Shown one piece after another: positions 18,323 to 51,600 of a stretch of 64,000 nt of DNA. The first letter of the stretch is position 1. The number at the start of each line of letters is the position of its first letter. Under the pieces are notes generated by a model. That model worked only from the letters and a program-made list of their open reading frames with translations. It did not search any database and had not been told where the DNA came from. Source of the DNA: Escherichia phage vB_EcoM-UFV13; sequence record NC_031103.1, one strand, 5' to 3'. A program made the position numbers and the translations under genes.

Positions 18323-18637
18323 CTAAAAGAAACTTCTTTCACAATTTTTTCCACTGAACCATGCGCTCACTGCTTTCTTAGTCTCAGGAGCAGTGTTATC
18401 CATAAACCACTCAAAGGCAGCCTTTTTATGATTCTGGAGGGCTTCTCGGGCTTTAATCTGCTCACGGTCTATTAACACTAACATATGAGCCTTTCTTGTC
18501 ACCAAGGGCTTCTTATGATTCTTGGAGTATTCCCAGTCATTTGTCCAACGCATTGTCGTTGCGAACTGAAATACTGCGTCTTTAATTTTAGTTTCATAAA
18601 TTTCACGAGCCTTTGAGTATAACATCANTACCTCCAT
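18323..18637 (-). CDS. Hypothetical protein
   Basis: 104-aa ORF; an ambiguous base at its 5' end makes the start uncertain. Confidence 0.4.
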   Translation of the reverse strand: MEVXMLYSKAREIYETKIKDAVFQFATTMRWTNDWEYSKNHKKPLVTRKAHMLVLIDREQIKAREALQNHKKAAFEWFMDNTAPETKKAVSAWFSGKNCERSFF

Positions 18638-18726
18638 TNACCAGTTTAATTCTANTCATCTTTTTNATGGCAGTCCATATAATCTATTTCTGAACTGCCT
18701 TTTTGTCATAGAAGTCCTCTTATGAA

Positions 18727-23771: not shown

Positions 23772-24061
23772 TCAGTCTCCAATTTAATGTTCATAATTCT
23801 AGCGTATGATTGTGCCATCTCCGCGCCTCGCTCTATACATTCAAAATCAGAAGAGCACGGGTCATTTTTATAGGTCGTTCTCATAAAACTATAGAACTGT
23901 TCAGATGATTCTACGCTTTTATTTTCAAAAAGCATATAAACATGTCTAATACCAGATTCCATAAATTTATCAAAATGAGGATCGACATTCGCTTCAATTG
24001 GTGGAGATAAAACAAATGACAATCCTAGCATGGCAAAAAGTGCCGTTGCTTTTAAGGCCAT
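23768..24061 (-). CDS. rI: Lysis inhibition regulator rI (signal-anchored)
   Basis: 97 aa; N-terminus MALKATALFAMLGLSFVLSP and the rest match T4 RI as I recall it. Confidence 0.85.
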   Translation of the reverse strand: MALKATALFAMLGLSFVLSPPIEANVDPHFDKFMESGIRHVYMLFENKSVESSEQFYSFMRTTYKNDPCSSDFECIERGAEMAQSYARIMNIKLETE

Positions 24062-24073
24062 AAAGGCCTCCTA

Positions 24074-24286
24074 TCATTTTTGTCCTGTATTTACTTTATG
24101 CCGATGCACGGCCTTAACTTTATCAAGGTATTTTTCAAAATTTCGCAATCTAGTATAGTCTGCCGGAGATTGGTTGAGTGATACTTCTCGACGCAAAGCT
24201 GAAATGATATTTCCAACTTCCCTACGAATTTCATCTAATTGAAGCACAGTAAGATTGCGAAGTTGCTTTTCAGTTAATTGTAGCAT
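24074..24286 (-). CDS. Hypothetical protein (rI.1 position)
   Basis: 70-aa ORF between tk and rI. Confidence 0.5.
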
Positions 24287-24328
24287 ATATACCCCTTTAG
24301 TTAGATAAATCTATTTATAACTTTTGCA

Positions 24329-24910
24329 CTAACCGAGCTTTTTAGTTAATTCATTCCAATGTTTTCTACACAAAGAAACATAAATTTCATCACCAATACA
24401 GATTTGATTGCCTTCTTTAACTGGTGTTCCATCTTCCATCAATCGAGCTGTCATAATCGCTTTTTTGCCGCAATGACAAACTGCCTTTAGTTCAATAAGT
24501 TTATCTGCAATCGCTAAAAGTTCTTTAGAACCTTCAAACAATTTTCCAGCGAAATCAGTCCTTAACCCATAAGCCATAACAGGAACATTATATGTATCAA
24601 CAATTCGACTCAATTGATGCACTTGTTCAGTTTTTAAAAACTGGGCTTCATCTACAAATACGCAATGAATATCTTTTTGTGCTTCAGCCCATTTATAGAA
24701 CTCGAAAATATCCATATCATCTGTAATAATATTCGCTTCCTGTTTAATTCCAATGCGAGAAACAACTTCACAGACAGAATCACGAGTATCAATAGCAGGC
24801 TTAAGAACTAATACACTCATTCCACGTTCTTTATAATTATGTGCAGCAGTCAAAAGAGAAGCAGATTTTCCAGCATTCATTGCTGCATAAGTAAAAATTA
24901 AACTCGCCAT
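24329..24910 (-). CDS. tk: Thymidine kinase
   Basis: 193 aa; P-loop AAMNAGKS and C-terminal zinc motif CHCGKKA...C; same length as T4 Tk. Confidence 0.9.
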   Translation of the reverse strand: MASLIFTYAAMNAGKSASLLTAAHNYKERGMSVLVLKPAIDTRDSVCEVVSRIGIKQEANIITDDMDIFEFYKWAEAQKDIHCVFVDEAQFLKTEQVHQLSRIVDTYNVPVMAYGLRTDFAGKLFEGSKELLAIADKLIELKAVCHCGKKAIMTARLMEDGTPVKEGNQICIGDEIYVSLCRKHWNELTKKLG

Positions 24911-24919
24911 ATCACCTTC

Positions 24920-25105
24920 TTAAAGCGTATTCACATAAGCTATTAATTCATTTTCTTTCTTATCAAACCGATCAGCAAATTCTTCCTGCTGTTCGGGAGA
25001 TAGCGGGCCGTATTCATTATAAAAGGTGTTTGCTTCTGTATGCTCATCTAGAAGTTCATGGATAAGCTCAAAAAATTTATCTTTTTGTTCTTTGCTTAGA
25101 CTCAT
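24920..25105 (-). CDS. Hypothetical small acidic protein
   Basis: 61-aa ORF just upstream of tk. Confidence 0.45.
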   Translation of the reverse strand: MSLSKEQKDKFFELIHELLDEHTEANTFYNEYGPLSPEQQEEFADRFDKKENELIAYVNTL

Positions 25106-25271
25106 ATATTAATTTCCAGGAGTTTTAAAATAATTCGCTTTTGCTTAAATATTTCCATAGTTAAATGACCAGTATCTTTTTGACCGATTCCAATGGCAAA
25201 ACCTTTATTAACAGCGAGTTCAATTAAATTATCAAGCTCACGTAACACTTCGTATTGTAACTCAAAACTAT

Positions 25272-25499
25272 TCATTTTGGTTTACCTTCTTTAACGAAAT
25301 CAGGATAAGGGTAAAATCCTGAATAAAATCCTTCACCTTTATGATTGATGCATCCTTTATTAGAACAATAGCACCAATAATCGAAATCACAAGCCATTTC
25401 ATCGTTGCATAAAGCAAAAACAACCGGCCACTTACACTTTTCACAGTGGGCATTTTTAAGAATACTAGTTTGGCTCATAACCATGTAACCTTTAAGCAA
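25272..25499 (-). CDS. Cys-rich small protein
   Basis: 75 aa with CEKC...C..C and C.C...C.NH, a zinc-binding-like pattern. Confidence 0.45.
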   Translation of the reverse strand: MLKGYMVMSQTSILKNAHCEKCKWPVVFALCNDEMACDFDYWCYCSNKGCINHKGEGFYSGFYPYPDFVKEGKPK

Positions 25500-25687
25500 T
25501 ATTCTTCTACATGTTGTTTACGACCTTTCTTATCAATAAAGGTATATTCAACGAATGTTCCAATGTAGTCTTTATCTACATCATGTGGACTATTAATTGG
25601 ACATTTAGTACGGCAAATGCGTTCCCATTGACGAATAATTTCCACTTTGTTTTTAGGATCAAACGGATGTGGGTAATGTACTTTCAT
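25475..25687 (-). CDS. Hypothetical small protein
   Basis: 70-aa ORF overlapping its neighbours at both ends. Confidence 0.4.
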   Translation of the reverse strand: MKVHYPHPFDPKNKVEIIRQWERICRTKCPINSPHDVDKDYIGTFVEYTFIDKKGRKQHVEEYCLKVTWL

Positions 25688-26138
25688 AATCCACCACTAT
25701 TAAATCAATATCAGGAGTAAACATGTCGATTAATTTAGAAACCTTATCCCAATCGCCGCCAGCAATACCACAACCTATGCGTGGAATGTAAATTACTGGT
25801 TTAAACAAAAGGGTTTCTGCCTGTAGATTTAATTCTATCATGCAGTTTACTAAAGCACCATAATCAAGATTAGGACCTGGTTCGTATTGCGTATACAAGT
25901 TATAACATATGCCAAAACCATTAGGTTTATGTTTAAAAACAATAGACATATCACCGAGTTTTTCACGCGAACCATATTCAGTTGTGGTTTTATCTATTTC
26001 TAAAATTTTGGGATAGGCTCTTGCTAATTGACCCGCTACACCTGAACCCATAGTATGAAAACAGTTACACCCGTGCGCAATAATATTACCTTNAAGAAAN
26101 AGGGCGACAATATCGCCCTTGATATATTTTACAATCAT
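25659..26138 (-). CDS. Macro-domain protein, TARG1/DarG-like (putative ADP-ribose glycohydrolase)
   Basis: 159 aa; motifs GDIV...NIIAHGCNC.HTMGSGVAGQ and IPRIGCGIAGGDWDKV resemble the TARG1/C6orf130 macro family; two N bases in the gene. Confidence 0.6.
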   Translation of the reverse strand: MIVKYIKGDIVAXFLXGNIIAHGCNCFHTMGSGVAGQLARAYPKILEIDKTTTEYGSREKLGDMSIVFKHKPNGFGICYNLYTQYEPGPNLDYGALVNCMIELNLQAETLLFKPVIYIPRIGCGIAGGDWDKVSKLIDMFTPDIDLIVVDYESTLPTSV

Positions 26139-26482
26139 CTAGTACTCAATCCTCGATTATAAGAATCTACTAAACGGTCAACCATTGAATGACAAGCGGC
26201 TTTATCTTTCTCCTCCGCAACTGAACATTCTAAGGTATTCCACTTTTTAGCATATCGTTTTAATAATGTATCGTTTTTGTATCTGCTTGATTTATCTCTT
26301 TCTCCGTCTTTATATGCATATATTAATTTCTGTGCAAATTCAGCTTGGCATGCTTTATTTTTCCCACAATAATCTGCCGCAGTGCGGTTTACATATTCTC
26401 TAATTTCAGTATATGATGTATCTGCTGACGCAGAAGCAGAAAATGAAATTAATCCTATACATAAAACCAAAATTTTAGTCAT
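26135..26482 (-). CDS. Small secreted protein
   Basis: 115 aa with N-terminal signal peptide MTKILVLCIGLISFSASASA. Confidence 0.5.
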   Translation of the reverse strand: MTKILVLCIGLISFSASASADTSYTEIREYVNRTAADYCGKNKACQAEFAQKLIYAYKDGERDKSSRYKNDTLLKRYAKKWNTLECSVAEEKDKAACHSMVDRLVDSYNRGLSTR

Positions 26483-27020
26483 TTACTATTTCCAAAAGTT
26501 TATTATTTTTAAGGTAATTAGCCTTTTCTAGGACTTCAGAAGCATATTTAGAACCAGCTTTAACATTCCATCCCGAATTATAAGAGGATATTGCTTTTCT
26601 TATATCGCCCTTATGTATATTTAACCAATAAGAAAGTTCAATGTACGCCCATGAAGCTGAATTGGATCGTTTATTCAACATTCTTTTTATTTCAGCATCG
26701 GTCATATTATAACCAAGTTCCTTAACTCTTGCTCGCATAGTAGGCAAATAATTTTGGAACATTCCATAGGCGTGATGCTTTGGTTTAGATTTTAAATTAA
26801 CTCCGCCAGAGCTTTCTTGCCATAAAATAGCAGCCATTATATGACCTAATCCGCTCTTATGGATATTTTTGTGTGTTTTATATTTTCCATCCTTAGAAAA
26901 TTGTTCCCCGAATTGATACGCGTAACGCATGTTATCGAGTTGGACATTACTGAAAGTATGCTCGGAGCTATGTGCCATCATTGAAATGGCCAATAGACCA
27001 GCGAGTAGTGCTTTTCTCAT
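26475..27020 (-). CDS. Secreted lytic transglycosylase-like protein
   Basis: 181 aa; signal peptide plus SLT-like catalytic motif ILWQESSGG. Confidence 0.6.
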   Translation of the reverse strand: MRKALLAGLLAISMMAHSSEHTFSNVQLDNMRYAYQFGEQFSKDGKYKTHKNIHKSGLGHIMAAILWQESSGGVNLKSKPKHHAYGMFQNYLPTMRARVKELGYNMTDAEIKRMLNKRSNSASWAYIELSYWLNIHKGDIRKAISSYNSGWNVKAGSKYASEVLEKANYLKNNKLLEIVND

Positions 27021-27027
27021 GCTTACC

Positions 27028-27489
27028 TCATTGAGTTTTAATTACTGCTTTAGAAGCCTTTCCTGGTAAACGACGACTGTTAATAATTGCCATCCTGCAT
27101 TGAAGCGACGGGTCTTTGAACTTCGCATTAGGTTTACAAACTGTAAATCCAAGCCAAAGATTTCCATCTGTGATTTCTAAACGTCCAGGACGATATTCAA
27201 CCCCATCAATAAAATCCTCGTCAATGTCAGGACGCGGAGGCATACTTAGGAATTCATTAACTTCTAAAACATGGTCTTTTATTTTATGGAATAATTCAAA
27301 AACGTATGTCTCATCAATCTCCCGTTGAATTGCGCGATCAAGAAGATGTTGAGAATATTTTAGATGAAACGATGAGACCCCTGCTGCTTTTGATGCCTCA
27401 CGAATCTCATTGTTAATTTGACGAAACTCCGACTCAAAGTGACGACGAAGCTTATTTCGACGGATAAAAACTTCTGTGTTGATAGTCAT
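27028..27489 (-). CDS. regB: Endoribonuclease RegB
   Basis: 153 aa, same length as T4 RegB, in the expected position with an early promoter upstream. Confidence 0.8.
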   Translation of the reverse strand: MTINTEVFIRRNKLRRHFESEFRQINNEIREASKAAGVSSFHLKYSQHLLDRAIQREIDETYVFELFHKIKDHVLEVNEFLSMPPRPDIDEDFIDGVEYRPGRLEITDGNLWLGFTVCKPNAKFKDPSLQCRMAIINSRRLPGKASKAVIKTQ

Positions 27490-27515
27490 GTTATTCTCCT
27501 CTTAACTGATAGAAA

Positions 27516-27548
27516 AATTATACCACAGTCAAGAGGAAAAGTAAACAG
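27516..27548 (-). promoter_or_regulatory. T4-type early promoter
   Basis: GTTTAC, 13-nt spacer, TGTGGTATAAT on the minus strand upstream of regB. Confidence 0.7.
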
Positions 27549-27869
27549 TTATTCTTTAAATCTAATCAATTTATTCATAGACTTTGAAACTTCTGCACGA
27601 ACCTCATGTAAGTTTTTAAGCTGTTCAAGACGCTGCTCATAGTAAGCAATTTCATCTTCTTCGAGACAGTCCTGTGAATCTTCTTTAAGATAACGCGCAT
27701 AGTCCTGGAAAGCTTTACGGACTACTTCCTGGAAATCATCAAGACTTTGAATTTTCTTAGGAGCGGCAGATACACGACGAGGTGCAGTATAATACTCATA
27801 ACCAAACCCTGCGCTTAATTGAGCCATTAGTATTTTTCCTCTGGTTGGAACACAGCACGACAAGCCCAC
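27549..27869 (-). CDS. Hypothetical protein (vs.3 position)
   Basis: 106-aa ORF. Confidence 0.45.
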
Positions 27870-28129
27870 ATGCTGGCTTCTTTGAGTTTCGTTTTAGCAA
27901 TAGTTAACTGATCGAGACTTTCAGCATAATTCTTTGCGAATTCACAGTCTTCACACTTATCTAGTGCTTCCCAGAATTCATCATATAAAGCATCAAAGAT
28001 AAGTCCTAAACGAACTTCAGCGTCTTTAATAGCATTTACTTTACCGATTTTTTCGTCGGTATGTGGCTTATAACCTTTAATATCTTCAATCATATTTGAC
28101 TTCCTCACCAGTACATAAATCGTATTCAA
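27827..28129 (-). CDS. Hypothetical protein (vs.4 position)
   Basis: 100-aa ORF at the position where T4 encodes Vs.4; sequence identity not verified. Confidence 0.45.
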
Positions 28130-28307
28130 CTAAACGAATAGGTTCATGAATGCCATATCCCTGAACAGAAATTTCTGTCGTAGGATAAATTCCATTAATA
28201 TCACCCATGTTCCATGCTTCGTTAAATTGCTGTTCGCCTGAATTACTAAACCATTCGGCGAAAGCATTTAGCACATCTTTAGAACCTTCAATAATTATCT
28301 TTGCCAT
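28086..28307 (-). CDS. Hypothetical small protein
   Basis: 73-aa ORF. Confidence 0.45.
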   Translation of the reverse strand: MAKIIIEGSKDVLNAFAEWFSNSGEQQFNEAWNMGDINGIYPTTEISVQGYGIHEPIRLVEYDLCTGEEVKYD

Positions 28308-28669
28308 TACAGACTCTCAGTAAAGGTACGAGCGATAACGTCGCGCTGCTGTTCCGGAGTCAGAGAGTTAAAGCGAACTGCATAACCGGATACGCGGATG
28401 GTCAGCTGCGGATATTTTTCCGGATGCTTAACTGCATCTTCCAGAGTTTCACGACGCAGAACGTTAACGTTCAGGTGTTGACCACCTTCAATTTTAACTG
28501 TAGGCTGTGGCTCAATTTCAATTTCACGGGCATGCAAACCGTAGAAAATTTCTGGGTCTACAAAAGAGTCCTCTTTAAAGGTTTTAGAGACAATAATTCG
28601 TGCTTGAATACCATCTTCAAAATAAATAGTACCTTTATGCGTGCCTTCAAGAATTTGATATGCTTTCAT
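28307..28669 (-). CDS. Autonomous glycyl radical cofactor (GrcA/YfiD-like)
   Basis: 120 aa; C-terminal roughly 60 residues match E. coli GrcA as I recall it ([42 protein letters not shown]...); GC-richer, host-like composition. Confidence 0.85.
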
Positions 28670-28676
28670 ATAAACC

Positions 28677-29006
28677 TCAATTAGAAAATAAATTTATCCA
28701 AGATTGTTCTTTAATTAAAAACGGCTCAGAATCATATGCCATTAAACTCTGCGTGATTAGTCCTTTAAAAGGTCCATCAATAAATTCCATGGTAAAATAT
28801 GGAATTTTATTCATTAGCCGTGCATTAGGAGCAGTACACAAAACTCTGCATCCTTTGAATACGCCTTTTTGTAATTTGTATTGCTTAGGATAAAATTCGC
28901 TCAAGACGTTGTTATTTGCCAAAATTTCAAAATGATTCACCAATTTATTTTTAATAGTTTTTGGCGAAAAATAAAGATATTCGAAAAGCTGAGTGTCTGT
29001 CATCAT
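28677..29006 (-). CDS. Hypothetical protein
   Basis: Start at MMTDTQ overlapping the upstream stop (ATGATGA). Confidence 0.45.
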
Positions 29007-29590
29007 TGCATTCCGATTACGAAAAACTGTGGACGAGTAATACCACCAATACAACATTTAATATTACAGCAGCAGTGTACAGTGTCAATATGGACACTAT
29101 AAATCTTATCCATATCAGGAGATTTGACAGGCTCATCAATTATATACAAAATTCGCGAAAGCGATAAACCTCTGAACTTGCTTCCTTTATTACCAATAAA
29201 ACTGCGCACAGAATCAGTAAATAAACGAAAACGTATATCATCATTAGAATAACGCGAAAATTCATTTTTAATGTTATTTGCAGAAATTTTAGCGTAAGCT
29301 GAAGTATTAGAAAGAACAATAACTGTTCCGCCATCATACAACCAATTAGCAGCAAAGTTAGTCACAGCAATTGATTTACCGGATTGACGTCCACCATCTA
29401 TACGAAGTGTGCAATACTGTTTAAGTAAATCTTCAAATGGTGGGATATAATCGTTTTTACAAATTTCTTCTACTCTAGCATCAGAATGGTGTGTAAAAGC
29501 ATTCATCAGGGATAGATAAGGACCAGTTAAAAATGTTCTCATTTTATTCTCTCTAAATTTGGGCCATTCCATGGCGCATGAATTGTCCAT
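29003..29590 (-). CDS. P-loop protein with Cys-rich C-terminal tail
   Basis: 195 aa; Walker A-like GGRQSGKS; tail HCCCNIKCCIGG. Confidence 0.5.
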   Translation of the reverse strand: MDNSCAMEWPKFRENKMRTFLTGPYLSLMNAFTHHSDARVEEICKNDYIPPFEDLLKQYCTLRIDGGRQSGKSIAVTNFAANWLYDGGTVIVLSNTSAYAKISANNIKNEFSRYSNDDIRFRLFTDSVRSFIGNKGSKFRGLSLSRILYIIDEPVKSPDMDKIYSVHIDTVHCCCNIKCCIGGITRPQFFVIGMQ

Positions 29591-29708
29591 TTCTGTATTT
29601 ACCCATTACCGCACTTGGGCTCGACCTTATTACAGGTTGGCGGGAATCCCTCACAGAATCATGAGGTCCAGCTTGTTCCCATTTTATTTGAATGTAAATA
29701 GGTCTGAG

Positions 29709-30284
29709 TTAGGAATTACGGGCTGCATTAGCAACGGCGTAAGCGTACTGAACATTAGCGTCTTTAAACGTACCTTTAGAGGTATCTATTTCTGCCTTAA
29801 AGCCGCCTTTAGTCATAACATCGGCAAATTCTTTACGGAAAGCCATTGCATCAAGACTTCTCCATGATGATTTGTGCTTGGCGAATTCAAGACCAGCGTA
29901 GTTGACAGCCTTAGCTAATTTATTATCAATAACCCATTTACCAGCTTTAGGCACAAACACCGGGCCTTTCTGTTTAGAGAATAGTTTTAAATTCCAGCGA
30001 CGAAGGTCACCGTCAGCTTTAACAAAAGCTGCGTCCAAATTACTAGCAACAACATCTTGAATATGGCCAAATTTAAGCCCATCAACTTCAATATTTAGAT
30101 CGGTACGCCAGCGAAGTCCTTCCCAAGCGAAAGCTTTAAAGTCAGAAGCTTTTGTAGCTAAGTATCGTTCAATAGGGGCTGTTTTAGGGTCAAAGCCGTT
30201 TCCTCGGTAAGTCCACTCATCTTTATTAATGCCTTTGGCCTTTTCCACAGAAGCTTCAGCGATAAATTCTTTATACGTTTTCAT
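29709..30284 (-). CDS. Internal (capsid-targeted) protein, IPIII-like
   Basis: 191 aa; N-terminal capsid targeting sequence MKTYKEFIAEA. Confidence 0.7.
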   Translation of the reverse strand: MKTYKEFIAEASVEKAKGINKDEWTYRGNGFDPKTAPIERYLATKASDFKAFAWEGLRWRTDLNIEVDGLKFGHIQDVVASNLDAAFVKADGDLRRWNLKLFSKQKGPVFVPKAGKWVIDNKLAKAVNYAGLEFAKHKSSWRSLDAMAFRKEFADVMTKGGFKAEIDTSKGTFKDANVQYAYAVANAARNS

Positions 30285-33143: not shown

Positions 33144-33502
33144 TTGATTTTCCTACAATCACTCACAAACTCTTTCATTGATTCATTTTCAATATAAGAC
33201 ATGTAGTTATTATATTCTTTTAANTGTATTTTGTAATCCTTTTTTCTTTGCCAATTTATTTTAAAATTATCATAATGAAAATATAGTATAGTGCTAAAGA
33301 ATGAAAATAATGAAATCGCTATAGTAAAACGAAGTTCACTCCAAACCTCTGTTATAATTGCTGAACTATCGATGTTTAAAATAAAACAGTCAATCATTAG
33401 TCCAATAAGACTACCCGCAAGAGCTGCAAATACTGATACGGCAAGAATTAATAGCGCCTCAGGAAACGAATATTTGACTTTATTTANTTTTGGCTTTTGC
33501 AT
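33140..33502 (-). CDS. Membrane protein
   Basis: 120 aa with two TM helices; N bases in the gene. Confidence 0.45.
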   Translation of the reverse strand: MQKPKXNKVKYSFPEALLILAVSVFAALAGSLIGLMIDCFILNIDSSAIITEVWSELRFTIAISLFSFFSTILYFHYDNFKINWQRKKDYKIXLKEYNNYMSYIENESMKEFVSDCRKIK

Positions 33503-33897
33503 CGTGATTCCTTAACAAATTTCATAATTTCNTTAAATTCATACATATNTAGTTTAAGCTGGTGTTCCTTTTTAATCTTTTTNCACTGNGCTTTCCAATC
33601 ACGTACGCGTTTACGATAATGTCTTCCTTGATACCAGTATCCTACCCAATTTACGGGTACTAATAAAAGTGGAACTATTAATGGAAGAATTAGCATTAAC
33701 ACAAGTATTTCGCCAGAATCAATATCAGTCATAACATCTAAAACACCTCCAATAATCAATAGAATTACAAATGATATGAGTATAACAGGACCTATTAATA
33801 CATCAGTAGAAATTAGCTGGCGCTTTAATTCATACTTTAAGGGTTTACTTGGAAGATACATTGATGGCTTTGACATATTCTCTACATTCCTTAACAA
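33484..33897 (-). CDS. Membrane protein
   Basis: 137 aa with two TM helices; several N bases in the 3' part. Confidence 0.45.
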   Translation of the reverse strand: MLRNVENMSKPSMYLPSKPLKYELKRQLISTDVLIGPVILISFVILLIIGGVLDVMTDIDSGEILVLMLILPLIVPLLLVPVNWVGYWYQGRHYRKRVRDWKXQXKKIKKEHQLKLXMYEFXEIMKFVKESRCKSQX

Positions 33898-36946: not shown

Positions 36947-37420
36947 TTATTTAATTTGCTTAGCAGACCAAATGCGGTCTTTAATAATTTTTTGGATGTC
37001 TTCAACATATTCAAGAGAGTGAACATGTGGGTTATCTTTGAAACTATAAGCACGAGCTAGCTTTTGGCCTTCAGTTTTGATTACTAAAAGCTCTTTAAGG
37101 ATAGCTTCATATTTGGAGATAATTCCTTTAACGATATTTTTCTCTTGTGTGACTTTAGGATCTGCTTTAGGAGCAGGTTTACCTGAAGCCTTTGCAAAAG
37201 CAGCNCCAGTAGCAACTAAACTTTTCCANGCCATACTAACAGCATTCCCCGTAAATCCTTCTGCTTTCATGTCGCGAGCAAATTGGAATCGTGATTCATC
37301 AGAAGCATCTTTATAGGAATATTTACCCGCGGCAATGGCNGCTTTTGCNACAGCTTGAATTTCAGTGCTAGATGCTTCATTTAACACCGCTTCATTTAAA
37401 AATTGAGCATATGATTTCAT
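36947..37420 (-). CDS. Internal (capsid-targeted) protein
   Basis: 157 aa; N-terminus MKSYAQFLNEAVLNEA; four N bases in the gene. Confidence 0.5.
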   Translation of the reverse strand: MKSYAQFLNEAVLNEASSTEIQAXAKXAIAAGKYSYKDASDESRFQFARDMKAEGFTGNAVSMXWKSLVATXAAFAKASGKPAPKADPKVTQEKNIVKGIISKYEAILKELLVIKTEGQKLARAYSFKDNPHVHSLEYVEDIQKIIKDRIWSAKQIK

Positions 37421-37462
37421 CTTATTTCCTGTTTTAATTCGTGGTTTTAATATACTTATTTA

Positions 37463-37494
37463 TACTAAAAAGCCCCAACCTTTCGGCTGGGGCT
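37463..37494 (-). terminator. Hairpin terminator downstream of the tRNA/RNA cluster
   Basis: AGCCCCAGCCGAAAGGTTGGGGCT hairpin followed by UUUUUAG on the transcript. Confidence 0.65.
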
Positions 37495-37545
37495 AAGCCT
37501 TGCGGCAACCTTGTCGGGGTTCCACCTGCTAAGGCAAGTGTTTGT

Positions 37546-37637
37546 ACGAAACGCCGGGATTCGAACCCGGTTATTAAGCAGTTGACGCTACTNAATATTT
37601 TTAAAAGGCCATATCTCGACCATATCCGAACGTTCCG
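37546..37637 (-). ncRNA. tRNA-like structured RNA (possible stable RNA, rnaC/rnaD-like)
   Basis: Perfect T-arm CCGGG-TTCGAAT-CCCGG and a 7-bp acceptor-like pairing (CGGAACG with CGTTTCG), but no clean anticodon arm and no encoded CCA; contains one N. Confidence 0.35.
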
Positions 37638-48603: not shown

Positions 48604-51600
48604 CAGTAAAAGCACCTTCAGTCACTAGTCTCAGAATTTCCAAGTTATCCGCAAATCAGGTGCAAGTACGCTGGGATGACGTTGGTGCTAATTTCTACTA
48701 TTTTGTAGAAATCGCTGAGACAAAAACAGACTCGGGGGAAAATCTCCCGAGTAATCAATACAAATGGATTAACTTAGGATATACAGCAAATAATAGTTTC
48801 TTTTTTGATGACGCTGATCCGCTGACATCGTATGTTATTAGAGTAGCTACGGCGGCGCAAGATTTTGAGCAGTCTGATTGGATTTATACCGAAGAGTTTG
48901 AAACTTTTGCTACGAATGCTTACACATTTCAAAACATGATTGAAATGCAATTAGCTAATAAATTCATTCAAGAAAAGTTCACTCTTAATAATTCTGATTA
49001 TGTTAATTTTAATAATGACACCATAATGGCTGCATTGATGAATGAATCGTTCCAGTTCAGCCCATCGTATGTTGATGTCTCATCAATCAGTAATTTTATT
49101 ATTGGTGAAAATGAGTATCATGAAATACAAGGTTCTATTCAGCAAGTATGTAAGGATATTAACCGAGTTTATTTGATGGAATCAGAAGGGATTCTATATC
49201 TTTTTGAGCGCTATCAACCCGTAGTTAAAGTATCTAATGATAAAGGACAAACCTGGAAAGCCGTAAAGCTCTTCAATGACCGCGTAGGATATCCTTTATC
49301 TAAGACAGTATATTACCAATCTGCAAACACAACATACGTTCTAGGATACGACAAGATTTTCTATGGCCGTAAATCGACTGACGTTAGATGGTCAGCAGAT
49401 GATGTCAGATTCAGTTCACAGGATATAACATTTGCTAAACTTGGTGACCAACTTCATTTAGGATTCGATGTTGAAATCTTCGCTACTTATGCTACTTTAC
49501 CGGCGAATGTATACCGCATTGCAGAAGCTATTACTTGCACCGATGATTACATTTACGTTGTTGCCAGAGATAAAGTTAGATACATAAAAACGAGTAATGC
49601 ACCTATAGATTCTGATCCATTATCCCCAACATATTCGGAAAGACTTTTTGAACCTGACACAATGACTATAACCGGAAATCCTAAAGCAGTATGCTATAAA
49701 ATGGATTCTGTTGGTGATAAAGTTTTTGCTCTTATTATTGGTGAAGTTGAAACATTAAATGCNAATCCNAGAACATCAAAAATAATTGATTCCGCTGATA
49801 AAGGAATATATGTTTTAAATCATGACGAAAAAACATGGAAAAGAGTTTTTGGTAATACNGAAGAAGAAAGAAGACGTATTCAACCNGGATATGCGAATAT
49901 GTCAACTGACGGTAAATTAGTTTCTCTGTCTTCGAGTAATTTTAAATTTTTAAGCGATAACGTTGTTAATGACCCTGAAACTGCAGCAAAATATCAGTTA
50001 ATTGGTGCTGTCAAATATGAATTTCCTCGTGAATGGTTAGCTGATAAGCATTATCATATGATGGCATTTATAGCGGATGAAAAATCTGATTGGGAGACTT
50101 TTACTCCTCAACCAATGAAATACTACGCAGAACCGTTCTTTAACTGGTCTAAAAAATCTAACACACGTTGTTGGATAAACAACTCCGATAGGGCTGTAGT
50201 AGTTTATGCTGATTTAAAATACATCAAAGTTATAGAAAATATTCCAGAAACATCACCAGATAGATTAGTTCATGAATACTGGAATGATGGCGATTGCACT
50301 ATAGTAATGCCAAATGTTAAATTCACTGGATTTAAAAAATACGCATCAGGAATGCTTTTTTACAAAGCCTCCGGTGAAATAATTTCTTACTATGATTTTA
50401 ACTATCGTGTGAGAGATACAGTAGAAATTATTTGGAAGCCAACTGAAGTATTTTTAAAAGCATTTTTACAAAACCAAGAGCATGAGACTCCTTGGTCACC
50501 AGAAGAAGAGCGTGGATTAGCTGACCCTGATTTAAGACCATTGATTGGCACAATGATGCCTGATTCTTATTTGTTACAGGATTCGAATTTTGAAGCATTT
50601 TGCGAAGCATATATTCAATATCTTTCTGATGGATATGGAACTCAGTATAACAATTTACGAAATTTAATTCGTAACAAATATCCACGAGAAGAGCATGCGT
50701 GGGAATATTTGTGGTCAGAGATATATAAAAGAAACATTTATTTAAATGCTGACAAACGTGATGCTGTTGCAAGATTTTTCGAATCACGTAGCTATGATTT
50801 TTATTCTACTAAAGGAATTGAAGCATCATACAAATTTCTTTTTAAAGTTCTTTATAATGAAGAGGTTGAAATTGAAATTGAATCTGGGGCTGGTACTGAA
50901 TATGATATAATCGTTCAATCTGATTCTTTGACTGAAGACTTAGTAGGACAAACGATTTATACAGCTACAGGAAGATGTAATGTTACTTATATAGAAAGAA
51001 GTTATTCTAATGGTAAATTGCAATGGACCGTAACTATTCATAATCTTTTGGGACGATTAATTGCCGGTCAAGAAGTTAAAGCAGAAAGACTTCCTAGTTT
51101 TGAAGGCGAAATTATTCGTGGGGTTAAAGGAAAGGATTTGCTTCAAAATAATATAGACTATATTAATAGAAGTCGATCATATTATGTAATGAAAATTAAA
51201 TCCAATTTACCTTCTTCTCGTTGGAAATCTGACGTTATTCGTTTTGTTCATCCAGTAGGATTTGGATTTATAGCAATTACCCTTTTAACGATGTTTATTA
51301 ATGTTGGTTTAACTCTTAAACACACAGAGACTATAATTAATAAATACAAAAACTATAAATGGGATTCTGGATTGCCTACTGAATATGCTGATAGAGTAGC
51401 TAAATTGACTCCAACTGGTGAAATTGAGCATGATTCGGTAACAGGCGAAGCAATTTATGAGCCTGGCCCAATGGCTGGTGTAGAATATCCTCTTCCTGAT
51501 GACTATAATGCTGAAAATAACAATTCAATATTTCAAGGTCAATTGCCGTCTGAACGACGTAAATTAATGAGTCCTTTATTTGATGCATCTGGAACAACAT

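What the first reader, a model, noticed from the sequence alone, without database searches (positions are those of the whole stretch)
25659..26138. TARG1/DarG-like macro-domain protein in the tk to regB early block
The 159-aa protein carries the two diagnostic motifs of the TARG1/C6orf130 macro family (HGCNC.HTMGSGVAGQ and IPRIGCGIAGGDWDKV), the same fold that DarG antitoxins use to remove ADP-ribose from DNA. In an early-expressed phage block this could erase defensive ADP-ribosylation (DarT-like toxins) or tune the phage's own ADP-ribosyltransferases. I cannot tell from the sequence whether T4 carries an annotated homolog at this position.
Basis: partly seen in the sequence, partly recalled or inferred. 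Interest (0 to 1): 0.6.

Follow-up and report, generated by a model that had tools for sequence, protein, structure and literature searches.

The report
Phage T4 tk.4/AdfM macrodomain, divergent allele

Summary
The 159-aa ORF at 25659-26138 (minus strand) is real and carries both quoted motifs. It is the positional orthologue of T4 tk.4, lying between vs and tk.3 in an RB3-like Tequatrovirus. Its macro ("A1pp phosphatase") domain has been annotated since 2006. A 2025 preprint showed that deleting T4 tk.4 sensitises T4 to DarTG2 and renamed the gene adfM.

The likeliest function is removal of DarT2-added ADP-ribose from phage DNA. This is inferred for this allele, not shown.

Three smaller observations are new:
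- The allele is only 57% identical to T4 Tk.4, although the neighbouring genes are 99-100% identical.
- It is closer to Dhakavirus alleles (76-78%) than to the T4 allele.
- A nucleotide-invariant hairpin sits at the upstream junction of the divergent segment.

Verdict: already known, low interest.

The parts
25659..26138 (-). tk.4 / adfM-type gene: 159-aa single-domain macrodomain protein
   Evidence: ORF. Pfam Macro at residues 22-136. 97% identical to RB3_116 'tk.4 phosphatase'. 57% identical to T4 Tk.4, E 3e-68. AF2 model pLDDT 93.9.
26028..26075 (-). Loop-1 / phosphate-binding motif HGCNCFHTMGSGVAGQ (residues 22-37), including invariant H22, G23, N25, C26 and G33
   Evidence: Coordinates checked by translation. 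Invariance across 93-119 homologues. N25 aligns with SCO6735 N27, the DarG Asn, PhiKZ AdfM N23 and the Poa1p Asn; TARG1 has Ser at this position.
25875..25901 (-). NLYTQYEPG (residues 80-88): invariant Gln84 at the position of the catalytic Lys of TARG1 (K84) and DarG (K80)
   Evidence: Q in 119 of 119 homologues. The profile alignment pairs Q with TARG1 K84 and with the Gln of BT1257. hmmalign table including SCO6735 Q85.
25749..25784 (-). PRIGCGIAGGDW (residues 119-130): second glycine-rich loop. G124 corresponds to SCO6735 G128, and A126 occupies the position of TARG1 D125.
   Evidence: The motif is nearly identical to PRIGCGLAGGTW of SCO6735 and PRIGCGLAGGKW of BT1257.
26135..26138 (-). 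ATGA overlap of the vs stop codon with the tk.4 start codon, suggesting translational coupling within the regB-vs.1-vs-tk.4 string
   Evidence: Sequence read directly.
25659..25687 (-). 29-nt overlap of the tk.4 3' end with the tk.3 start (the overlap is 4 nt in T4)
   Evidence: ORF coordinates; T4 and RB3 annotation.
26101..26119 (-). Conserved hairpin AGGGCGATATTGTCGCCCT in codons 7-13 of tk.4, followed by a T-rich run. It lies at the upstream edge of the divergent segment.
   Evidence: Terminator-like hit. Nucleotide-identical across Tequatrovirus, Mosigvirus and Dhakavirus alleles, while synonymous sites nearby vary; predicted dG about -13 kcal/mol. At the same codon position in 16 IMG/VR contigs covering all allele types. 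Annotated as 'terminator' in MT682709.
25640..26103 (.). Divergent allelic segment: about 55-60% nucleotide identity to T4, with flanks at 97-100%
   Evidence: Sliding identity of the window against T4. Per-gene identities.
27517..27545 (-). T4-type early promoter GTTTAC-N17-TGGTATAAT upstream of regB. It is the nearest consensus promoter in the right orientation for the regB-vs.1-vs-tk.4 string.
   Evidence: Scan hit with 10 of 12 matches plus TG; sequence read directly. That it drives tk.4 is inference. Promoter-like hits in the region as a whole are not above the shuffle expectation.

Best explanation
The ORF is the tk.4 (adfM) gene of an RB3-like T4-family phage. It encodes a stand-alone macrodomain of the ALC1-like (TARG1/DarG/Poa1p/SCO6735) class.

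The most likely mechanism runs as follows. The gene is transcribed early as part of the leftward regB-vs.1-vs-tk.4 string. Its product binds ADP-ribose attached by the host toxin DarT2 to thymidines in single-stranded phage DNA and hydrolyses the base-ribose bond. That restores replication, so the protein acts as an 'orphan antitoxin' against DarTG2.

Catalysis is predicted to be of the SCO6735 type, not the TARG1 or DarG type. No lysine nucleophile is present. Invariant Gln84, held in place by invariant Asn25, would position the distal ribose, and a water molecule activated by the loop-1 backbone would do the chemistry, with Gly124 lining the site.

Shown here: gene identity and position, fold class, active-site residue pattern, and allele divergence. 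Shown in the literature for relatives: the T4 tk.4 knockout is DarTG2-sensitive; SCO6735 and PhiKZ AdfM remove thymidine-linked ADP-ribose from DNA in vitro. Inferred: that this 57%-identical allele does the same, that it works by hydrolysis, and that the early promoter drives it.
For: - Positional orthology: the gene sits in the conserved order regB-vs.1-vs-tk.4-tk.3-tk in RB3, T4, Mosigvirus and Dhakavirus.
- Similarity to T4 Tk.4: 57% identity, E 3e-68, no gaps.
- Genetics of the T4 orthologue: tk.4 is the only HIDEN-SEQ hit on a DarTG2 host, and a clean knockout is sensitised.
- Profile hits to the same set of proteins. The PADLOC DarG model matches at E 4.7e-7.
- Active site: N25, Q84 and G124 are invariant in 93-119 homologues and align with SCO6735 N27, Q85 and G128.
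- SCO6735 cleaves thymidine-linked ADPr-DNA and protects against DarT toxicity. Its Q85A mutant is dead and N27S is nearly dead (PMC9411070).
- PhiKZ AdfM, a DarG-like phage macrodomain, removes ADPr from TNTC DNA in vitro (PMC13309987).
Against: - No biochemistry exists for any Tk.4-family protein. The T4 evidence is genetic only, and the preprint says only that enzymatic removal 'seems likely'.
- This allele is just 57% identical to the tested T4 allele.
- It lacks the long lysine-bearing mobile loop (K89, K93) that SCO6735 uses for DNA binding, and its net charge is -4.
- It scores far below the NCBIfam DarG equivalog cutoff: 27 bits against 250.
- Its loop-1 motif HxCNC is shared with the yeast Appr-1''-p phosphatase Poa1p.
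- SCO6735 Q85A still inhibits DarT by direct interaction, so protection need not be purely catalytic.
Confidence: 0.75

Rival explanations
1. Small-molecule ADP-ribose metabolite enzyme. Under this reading the protein is an ADP-ribose-1''-phosphate phosphatase (Poa1p-like, as the database label 'phosphatase' implies) or an O-acetyl-ADP-ribose deacetylase. It would clear by-products of RNA repair, of Tpt1/KptA activity or of sirtuin reactions, rather than de-modifying DNA.
For: - RefSeq annotation 'phosphatase; contains A1pp phosphatase motif' and the JGI label 'O-acetyl-ADP-ribose deacetylase'.
- The H-x-C-N-C loop-1 motif is shared with Poa1p.
- Aravind and colleagues argue that many phage macrodomains may prefer soluble ADPr derivatives (PMC9503650).
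Against: - The labels come from homology transfer, not from assays.
- The only phenotype known for the family is DarTG2 sensitivity.
- The Q84, N25 and PRIGCGxAGGxW residues match the DNA hydrolase SCO6735.
- From my own knowledge, T4's RNA repair pathway (Pnk/Rnl1) leaves no 2'-phosphate and so generates no Appr>p.
- The two activities are not mutually exclusive.
Confidence: 0.1
2. Mainly non-catalytic antagonist. The macrodomain would protect by binding and inhibiting DarT2 directly, or by shielding or sequestering ADP-ribosylated DNA, rather than by hydrolysis.
For: - The catalytic Lys is absent.
- Catalytically dead SCO6735 Q85A still inhibits DarT, more strongly than DarG K80A or TARG1 K84A.
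- The surface helices are the most divergent parts between alleles, at 24-38% identity. A binding interface under arms-race pressure could look like this.
Against: - All active-site positions are invariant across homologues down to 38% identity. That argues for retained catalysis.
- The protein has no DarG-like C-terminal DarT-binding domain; it is 159 aa and matches positions 2-142 of the 338-position NCBIfam DarG model.
- The family occurs in phages of many hosts, which suits a toxin-independent chemical reversal.
Confidence: 0.07
3. Eraser for a different ADP-ribosylation. It would reverse marks written by the phage's own Alt, ModA or ModB enzymes, or marks from other host ADP-ribosylating defences acting on RNA or protein, with DarTG2 only a side target.
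For:
- The gene is co-expressed early with other host-takeover genes (inference).
- SCO6735 and TARG1 also act on protein Glu/Asp-ADPr.
- Deep allelic diversity could reflect several targets.
Against: - From my own knowledge, Alt, ModA and ModB modify arginine, a linkage that this macrodomain class is not known to cleave.
- tk.4 is non-essential on plain K-12 and became important only with DarTG2 among the conditions reported.
- T-even phages remain sensitive to the mRNA ADP-ribosyltransferase system CmdTAC, according to the abstract of PMC11618068.
Confidence: 0.06

Closest known systems
T4 Tk.4 = AdfM (anti-DarT factor Macrodomain; NP_049723.1; bioRxiv 10.1101/2025.11.20.689424)
   Same: Same genomic slot between vs and tk.3 and the same length class (155 against 159 aa). 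The alignment is gapless at 57% identity (E 3e-68). Both share the invariant residues H22, G23, N25, C26, G33, N80, Y82, Q84, P119, G122, G124 and W130, and both carry the same 5' hairpin.
   Different: 43% of residues differ, although the neighbouring genes are 99-100% identical. This allele belongs to the RB3/Dhakavirus lineage and T4's to the T4/Mosigvirus lineage. It has a 4-aa longer C-terminus that overlaps tk.3 by 29 nt. The DarTG2 phenotype has been tested only for the T4 allele.
Streptomyces coelicolor SCO6735 (PDB 5e3b) and Bacteroides BT1257 (2afc/2fg1)
   Different: Only about 27-29% identical. Tk.4 lacks the 5-6-residue longer mobile loop carrying K89 and K93. Loop 1 reads HGCNC in Tk.4 rather than HVCND. 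SCO6735 is cellular and DNA-damage-induced, whereas Tk.4 is a phage early gene.
DarG antitoxin macrodomain (M. tuberculosis 5m3i, T. aquaticus 5m31/5m3e) and the DarG-like PhiKZ gp104 'AdfM' (PMC13309987)
   Different: DarG and PhiKZ AdfM keep the catalytic Lys (FPTKKHW and FPTKDNW), where Tk.4 has Gln. DarG has a C-terminal DarT-binding domain and an adjacent darT gene; Tk.4 has neither. PhiKZ AdfM matches Mtb DarG at E 9e-25, whereas the Tk.4 profile reaches only 1.7e-12. The two 'AdfM' proteins are therefore different lineages of the class.
Human TARG1 / C6orf130 / OARD1 (4j5r, 2eee)
   Same: Top Foldseek hit (E 3.5e-10, TM 0.75-0.83). The alignment is co-linear with almost the same residue numbering, the mobile-loop length is the same, and the PRIGCG motif is shared.
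   Different: The K84/D125 catalytic dyad is replaced by Q84/A126. Loop 1 has Asn where TARG1 has Ser. Identity is about 21%.
Yeast Poa1p, ADP-ribose-1''-phosphate phosphatase (6lfq-6lfu)
   Different: In the single-sequence search only the N-terminal half aligns well by sequence. Poa1p is 180 aa with insertions. No evidence links Tk.4 to Appr-1''-p.

Membership tests
Macro domain (Pfam PF01661) | Score above the curated gathering threshold over the full domain | tested here: met
   34.4 bits against a cutoff of 22; residues 22-136 match profile positions 2-117 of 118.
ALC1-like class of macrodomains (TARG1, DarG, Poa1p, SCO6735, BT1257) | Closest sequence and structure neighbours are members of this class, clearly separated from MacroD, viral and PARG types | tested here: met
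TARG1 proper | Catalytic Lys84/Asp125 dyad | tested here: not met
   K84 aligns with invariant Q84, and D125 aligns with A126 (G in T4).
DarG antitoxin (type II/IV TA) | Catalytic lysine (K80) in the FPTKKHW motif | tested here: not met
   Tk.4 has LYTQYEPG where both DarG structures and PhiKZ AdfM have the Lys.
DarG antitoxin (type II/IV TA) | C-terminal DarT-binding domain, full length about 330-340 aa, passing the equivalog cutoff | tested here: not met
   The protein is 159 aa. NCBIfam NF048014 scores 27.2 bits against a cutoff of 250, covering profile positions 2-142 of 338. The PADLOC DarG model is covered at 3-144 of 329.
DarG antitoxin (type II/IV TA) | Adjacent darT toxin gene | tested here: not met
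   The neighbours are vs and tk.3. The protein is at most an 'orphan antitoxin' analogue.
SCO6735/BT1257-type DNA ADP-ribosylhydrolase | Asn27 / Gln85 / Gly128 active-site triad in place of Lys | tested here: met
   N25, Q84 and G124 align with the triad and are invariant in the family. Residue roles come from PMC9411070.
SCO6735/BT1257-type DNA ADP-ribosylhydrolase | Extended mobile loop with Lys89/Lys93 that contacts DNA | tested here: not met
   Tk.4 lacks the 5-6-residue insertion after Gln; its loop has the length seen in TARG1 and DarG.
SCO6735/BT1257-type DNA ADP-ribosylhydrolase | Hydrolysis of thymidine-linked ADP-ribose on ssDNA | not testable with these tools
   Needs an in vitro assay on a DarT2-modified TNTC oligonucleotide.
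T4 Tk.4 / AdfM family (PHROG 335) | Sequence membership and conserved position between vs and tk.3 in Tevenvirinae | tested here: met
   PHROG 335 at E 1.2e-70. 57% identity to T4 Tk.4. Synteny holds in four genera-level comparisons.
T4 Tk.4 / AdfM family (PHROG 335) | Required for growth on DarTG2-expressing hosts | not testable with these tools
   Shown only for the T4 allele.
Poa1p-type Appr-1''-p phosphatase | Phosphatase activity on ADP-ribose-1''-phosphate | not testable with these tools
   Only the HxCNC loop and the fold are shared. The 'phosphatase' label is homology transfer.

The most novel reading that the evidence does not exclude
The two deep tk.4 allele lineages, T4/Mosigvirus-type and RB3/Dhakavirus-type, are about 57% identical. 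They appear to be exchanged as a cassette between Tevenvirinae genera, with the upstream junction at a nucleotide-invariant hairpin. On the most novel reading this is an arms-race polymorphism. The alleles would differ in which DarT2 variants, or which other ADP-ribosylating defences, they neutralise, or in whether a host system can sense them. The hairpin would act both as an attenuator of tk.4 expression and as a recombination anchor for allele swapping.
Probability: 0.15. Interest if true: 0.45.

Novelty: already known. Interest (0 to 1): 0.2.

Why it matters
The finding confirms that sequence reading alone correctly identified an anti-defence gene, but that gene is already annotated. Its macro/A1pp domain has been recognised since 2006, and its anti-DarTG2 role was reported in 2025.

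The residual value is modest and has three parts:
- The T4-family AdfM proteins have a Gln-type, SCO6735-like active site, not the Lys-type site of DarG with which they were compared. This predicts which mutants to make (Q84, N25). It also shows that phages recruited at least two different macrodomain lineages, the Tk.4 type and the DarG-like PhiKZ gp104, against the same toxin.
- The gene is a sharply bounded hot spot of allelic replacement in otherwise near-identical genomes. That is the pattern expected of a gene engaged in host-phage conflict.
- The 'phosphatase' label propagated in RefSeq is probably misleading.

Tried and rejected
- A single-sequence structure job was superseded by the alignment-based model. 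Its result was not ready at the one collection attempt and it was not collected again.
- The NCBIfam DarG equivalog and the PADLOC DarG model hit only the macro half and fall far below the cutoff. I therefore rejected filing the protein as DarG.
- I rejected TARG1 membership because the K84/D125 dyad is absent.
- I checked whether more distant family members are bacterial and linked to darT. The two contexts examined are phage genomes carrying UvsW, UvsY, T4 RNA ligase, Acb5 and ribonucleotide reductase genes, so no cellular TA origin could be shown.
- I checked whether the hairpin is a dispersed repeat, such as a PeSL-like element. It is unique in the window.
- Across 24000-30000 the sigma-70 promoter scan is not above the shuffle expectation: 18 sites found against 23 expected. 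Only the textbook early promoter upstream of regB is cited, and its link to tk.4 is inference.
- ORFs on the opposite strand across the gene (31-69 aa) were not pursued. They lie antisense to a strongly conserved coding sequence.
- I could not inspect the model coordinates, so the spatial contact between N25 and Q84 is inferred from the alignment to SCO6735 and was not measured.

Full report
**Observation.** The window has an ATG-initiated ORF of 159 codons at 25659-26138 on the minus strand. Two ambiguous bases lie in the ORF. One gives CTN, which is Leu13 regardless of the base. The other gives NAA at codon 16, which reads GAA, CAA or AAA in relatives. The ORF is clearly a gene:
- Pfam Macro PF01661 scores 34.4 bits against a cutoff of 22.
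- PHROG 335 matches at E 1.2e-70.
- tblastn finds homologues in 2,758 phage records.
- 791 proteins match in the large protein collection.

**Identity and context.** The surrounding DNA is 98% identical to phage RB3 and its relatives in the genus Tequatrovirus. In RB3 the ORF is RB3_116, noted as 'tk.4' and labelled 'phosphatase'. It lies between vs (valyl-tRNA synthetase modifier) and tk.3, inside the leftward string regB - vs.1 - vs - tk.4 - tk.3 ... tk.

T4 has the same arrangement. Its tk.4 (NP_049723.1, 155 aa) is annotated 'phosphatase; contains A1pp phosphatase motif'. The macro/A1pp domain of tk.4 orthologues was already reported in 2006 (PMC1524935).

The tk.4 start overlaps the vs stop codon in an ATGA, and its 3' end overlaps tk.3 by 29 nt. 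A textbook T4 early promoter, GTTTAC-N17-TGGTATAAT, lies upstream of regB at 27517-27545. That this promoter feeds tk.4 is inference.

**What is already known about function.** A 2025 preprint (HIDEN-SEQ, bioRxiv 10.1101/2025.11.20.689424) infected a DarTG2-expressing host with a T4 transposon library. It found tk.4 as the single significant hit, and a clean tk.4 knockout became DarTG2-sensitive. The authors renamed the gene adfM (anti-DarT factor Macrodomain) and stated that enzymatic removal of ADP-ribose from DNA 'seems likely'. They reported no biochemistry.

Independently, a 2026 Cell Reports paper (PMC13309987) gave the same name to PhiKZ gp104. It showed removal of ADPr from TNTC DNA in vitro, and that an N23A mutation reduced this activity.

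**Fold and class.** An AlphaFold2 model built on 93 homologues is confident (pLDDT 93.9, pTM 0.89).
- Foldseek against the PDB ranks TARG1 first (E 3.5e-10, TM 0.75-0.83), followed by BT1257, Poa1p and DarG.
- A family profile against PDB sequences gives the same set: BT1257 1.8e-19, TARG1 3.8e-17, SCO6735 1.2e-15, Poa1p 2.8e-15, DarG 1.7e-12 and 3.2e-11.

**Active site, the one real correction.** In 119 homologues spanning 38-97% identity, fourteen positions are invariant: H22, G23, N25, C26, G33, A35, D49, N80, Y82, Q84, P119, G122, G124 and W130.

The profile alignment pairs TARG1's catalytic Lys84 with the invariant Gln84, and TARG1's Asp125 with Ala126, which is Gly in T4. Both DarG structures and PhiKZ AdfM keep the lysine, in FPTKKHW and FPTKDNW. 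It does not, for the following reason.

BT1257 and Streptomyces SCO6735 have the same Gln, in the motif ANMIGQHG, and an almost identical second loop: PRIGCGLAGG.W against PRIGCGIAGGDW. SCO6735 has been characterised experimentally (PMC9411070):
- It efficiently cleaves thymidine-linked ADP-ribose on DNA and protects against DarT toxicity.
- Its Q85A mutant is dead, N27S is almost dead, and G128E reduces catalytic activity.
- The authors propose a lysine-free mechanism in which Gln85, locked by Asn27, positions the distal ribose, and a backbone-activated water attacks.

Tk.4's N25, Q84 and G124 align with exactly these residues. Tk.4 differs from SCO6735 in lacking the longer lysine-bearing mobile loop. 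Its loop 1 reads H-G-C-N-C, which resembles Poa1p's H-S-C-N-C.

Tk.4 is therefore best described as a phage branch of the Gln-type (SCO6735/BT1257-like) subgroup. It is not a TARG1 or DarG orthologue. It also fails the other DarG criteria: it has no C-terminal DarT-binding domain, it scores 27 bits against the equivalog cutoff of 250, and there is no adjacent darT gene.

**Mechanism proposed, with status of each step.**
- Early expression from the regB-side transcription unit: inferred.
- Binding of ADP-ribose in the conserved cleft: strongly implied by the fold and the invariant glycine loops.
- Hydrolysis of the thymine-ribose bond in DarT2-modified single-stranded phage DNA by the Asn25/Gln84/water mechanism: inferred from SCO6735.
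- Restoration of replication on DarTG2 hosts: shown genetically for the T4 allele only.

I put 0.75 on this overall. The rivals are a small-molecule enzyme for Appr-1''-p or OAADPr (0.10), mainly non-catalytic inhibition of DarT2 or shielding of modified DNA (0.07), and erasure of other ADP-ribosyl marks, including those written by the phage's own transferases (0.06).

**Allelic divergence.** The window's Tk.4 is only 57% identical to T4 Tk.4. By contrast rI, rI.1, tk, vs, vs.1 and regB are 99-100% identical, and tk.3 is 93% identical.

At the nucleotide level, identity to T4 falls from 97-100% to about 55-60% between roughly 25640 and 26103, then returns abruptly.

The gene tree disagrees with its neighbours. 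This allele is 76-78% identical to Dhakavirus alleles, and the T4 allele is 85% identical to a Mosigvirus allele. For regB, vs.1, vs and tk, however, the window equals T4, and both are 47-82% identical to those other genera.

Database counts show several allele clusters. Relative to this allele, 315 records are at 90% identity or more and 107 at 60-80%. Relative to the T4 allele, 221 records are at 95% or more and 159 at 80-90%.

This pattern is cassette-like exchange of an anti-defence gene. It is suggestive of conflict-driven diversification but does not prove it.

**Conserved hairpin.** Codons 7-13 (K-G-D-I-V-A-L) are encoded by AAGGGCGATATTGTCGCCCT. This forms an 8-bp GC-rich stem with a 3-nt loop (predicted dG about -13 kcal/mol), followed by a T-rich run.
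- The 20 nucleotides are identical in the window, RB3, T4, a Mosigvirus and a Dhakavirus. A second Dhakavirus has one change, in the loop. Synonymous sites in the equally conserved AHGCNC motif just downstream vary freely.
- An exact-pattern scan found the hairpin at the same codon position in 16 IMG/VR contigs carrying all allele types.
- One deposited genome annotates it as a terminator.
- It is unique in the window.
- It sits at the upstream junction of the divergent segment.

Its role is untested. It could be an attenuator between vs and tk.4, an mRNA 3'-end stabiliser, or a recombination anchor.

**Comparison and novelty.** The closest known entity is T4 Tk.4/AdfM, the same gene in a different allele. 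The closest characterised enzyme by active site is SCO6735. DarG, PhiKZ AdfM and TARG1 share the fold and probably the substrate, but not the catalytic residue.

The finding is already known: the domain since 2006 and the function since 2025. The increments here are the Gln-type active-site assignment for the T4-family AdfM, the allelic cassette pattern and the hairpin. Interest is 0.2.

Noticed in passing
window 26101-26119 (- strand); also L002, L003, L004, L005, L010-L025: A 19-20-nt hairpin inside codons 7-13 of tk.4 is nucleotide-invariant across Tequatrovirus, Mosigvirus and Dhakavirus and across both tk.4 allele lineages, although nearby synonymous sites vary. It is followed by a T-rich run, is annotated 'terminator' in MT682709, and marks the upstream edge of the divergent segment.
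   Followed up: partly
window 25640-26103 compared with L002 (T4): tk.4 is a sharply bounded allelic replacement: 57% amino-acid identity to T4 while the flanking genes are 99-100% identical. Its phylogeny is incongruent with its neighbours, being closer to Dhakavirus alleles (76-78%) than to T4.
   Followed up: yes
window 24920-25456 (- strand): The tk.1-tk.2 interval is also replaced relative to T4. A 61-aa tk.2-like ORF is only 54% identical. A 57-aa ORF (25102-25275) and a Cys-rich 75-aa ORF (25272-25499; CEKC...CNDEMAC...CYCSNKGC, possibly zinc-binding) have no T4 counterpart in the T4 stretch compared (rI to regB).
   Followed up: no
window 18628-18666, 26093, 26100, 33224-33589, 37205-37593, 49763-49886: The window contains 21 N bases in small clusters. 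The two in tk.4 fall exactly on sites that are polymorphic among related phages. This suggests a consensus from a mixed population or masked variant positions, not random sequencing gaps.
   Followed up: partly
literature: PMC13309987 compared with bioRxiv 10.1101/2025.11.20.689424: Two groups independently gave the name AdfM to proteins from different macrodomain lineages. PhiKZ gp104 is DarG-like with the catalytic Lys (E 9e-25 to Mtb DarG). T4 Tk.4 is Gln-type and SCO6735/BT1257-like. This invites nomenclature confusion.
   Followed up: yes
window 27517-27545 (- strand): Canonical T4 early promoter (GTTTAC, 17-nt spacer, TGGTATAAT) upstream of regB, followed by a strong Shine-Dalgarno sequence (AAGAGGAG).
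   Followed up: no
RefSeq annotation of RB3_108 / T4p103 (rI.-1) and T4p101 (mobD.4), seen in L001 and L002: Some product names near the locus look like doubtful homology transfers: 'starvation-inducible transcriptional regulator' for rI.-1, 'molybdopterin-guanine dinucleotide biosynthesis protein MobD' for the 60-aa mobD.4, and 'phosphatase' for tk.4.
   Followed up: no
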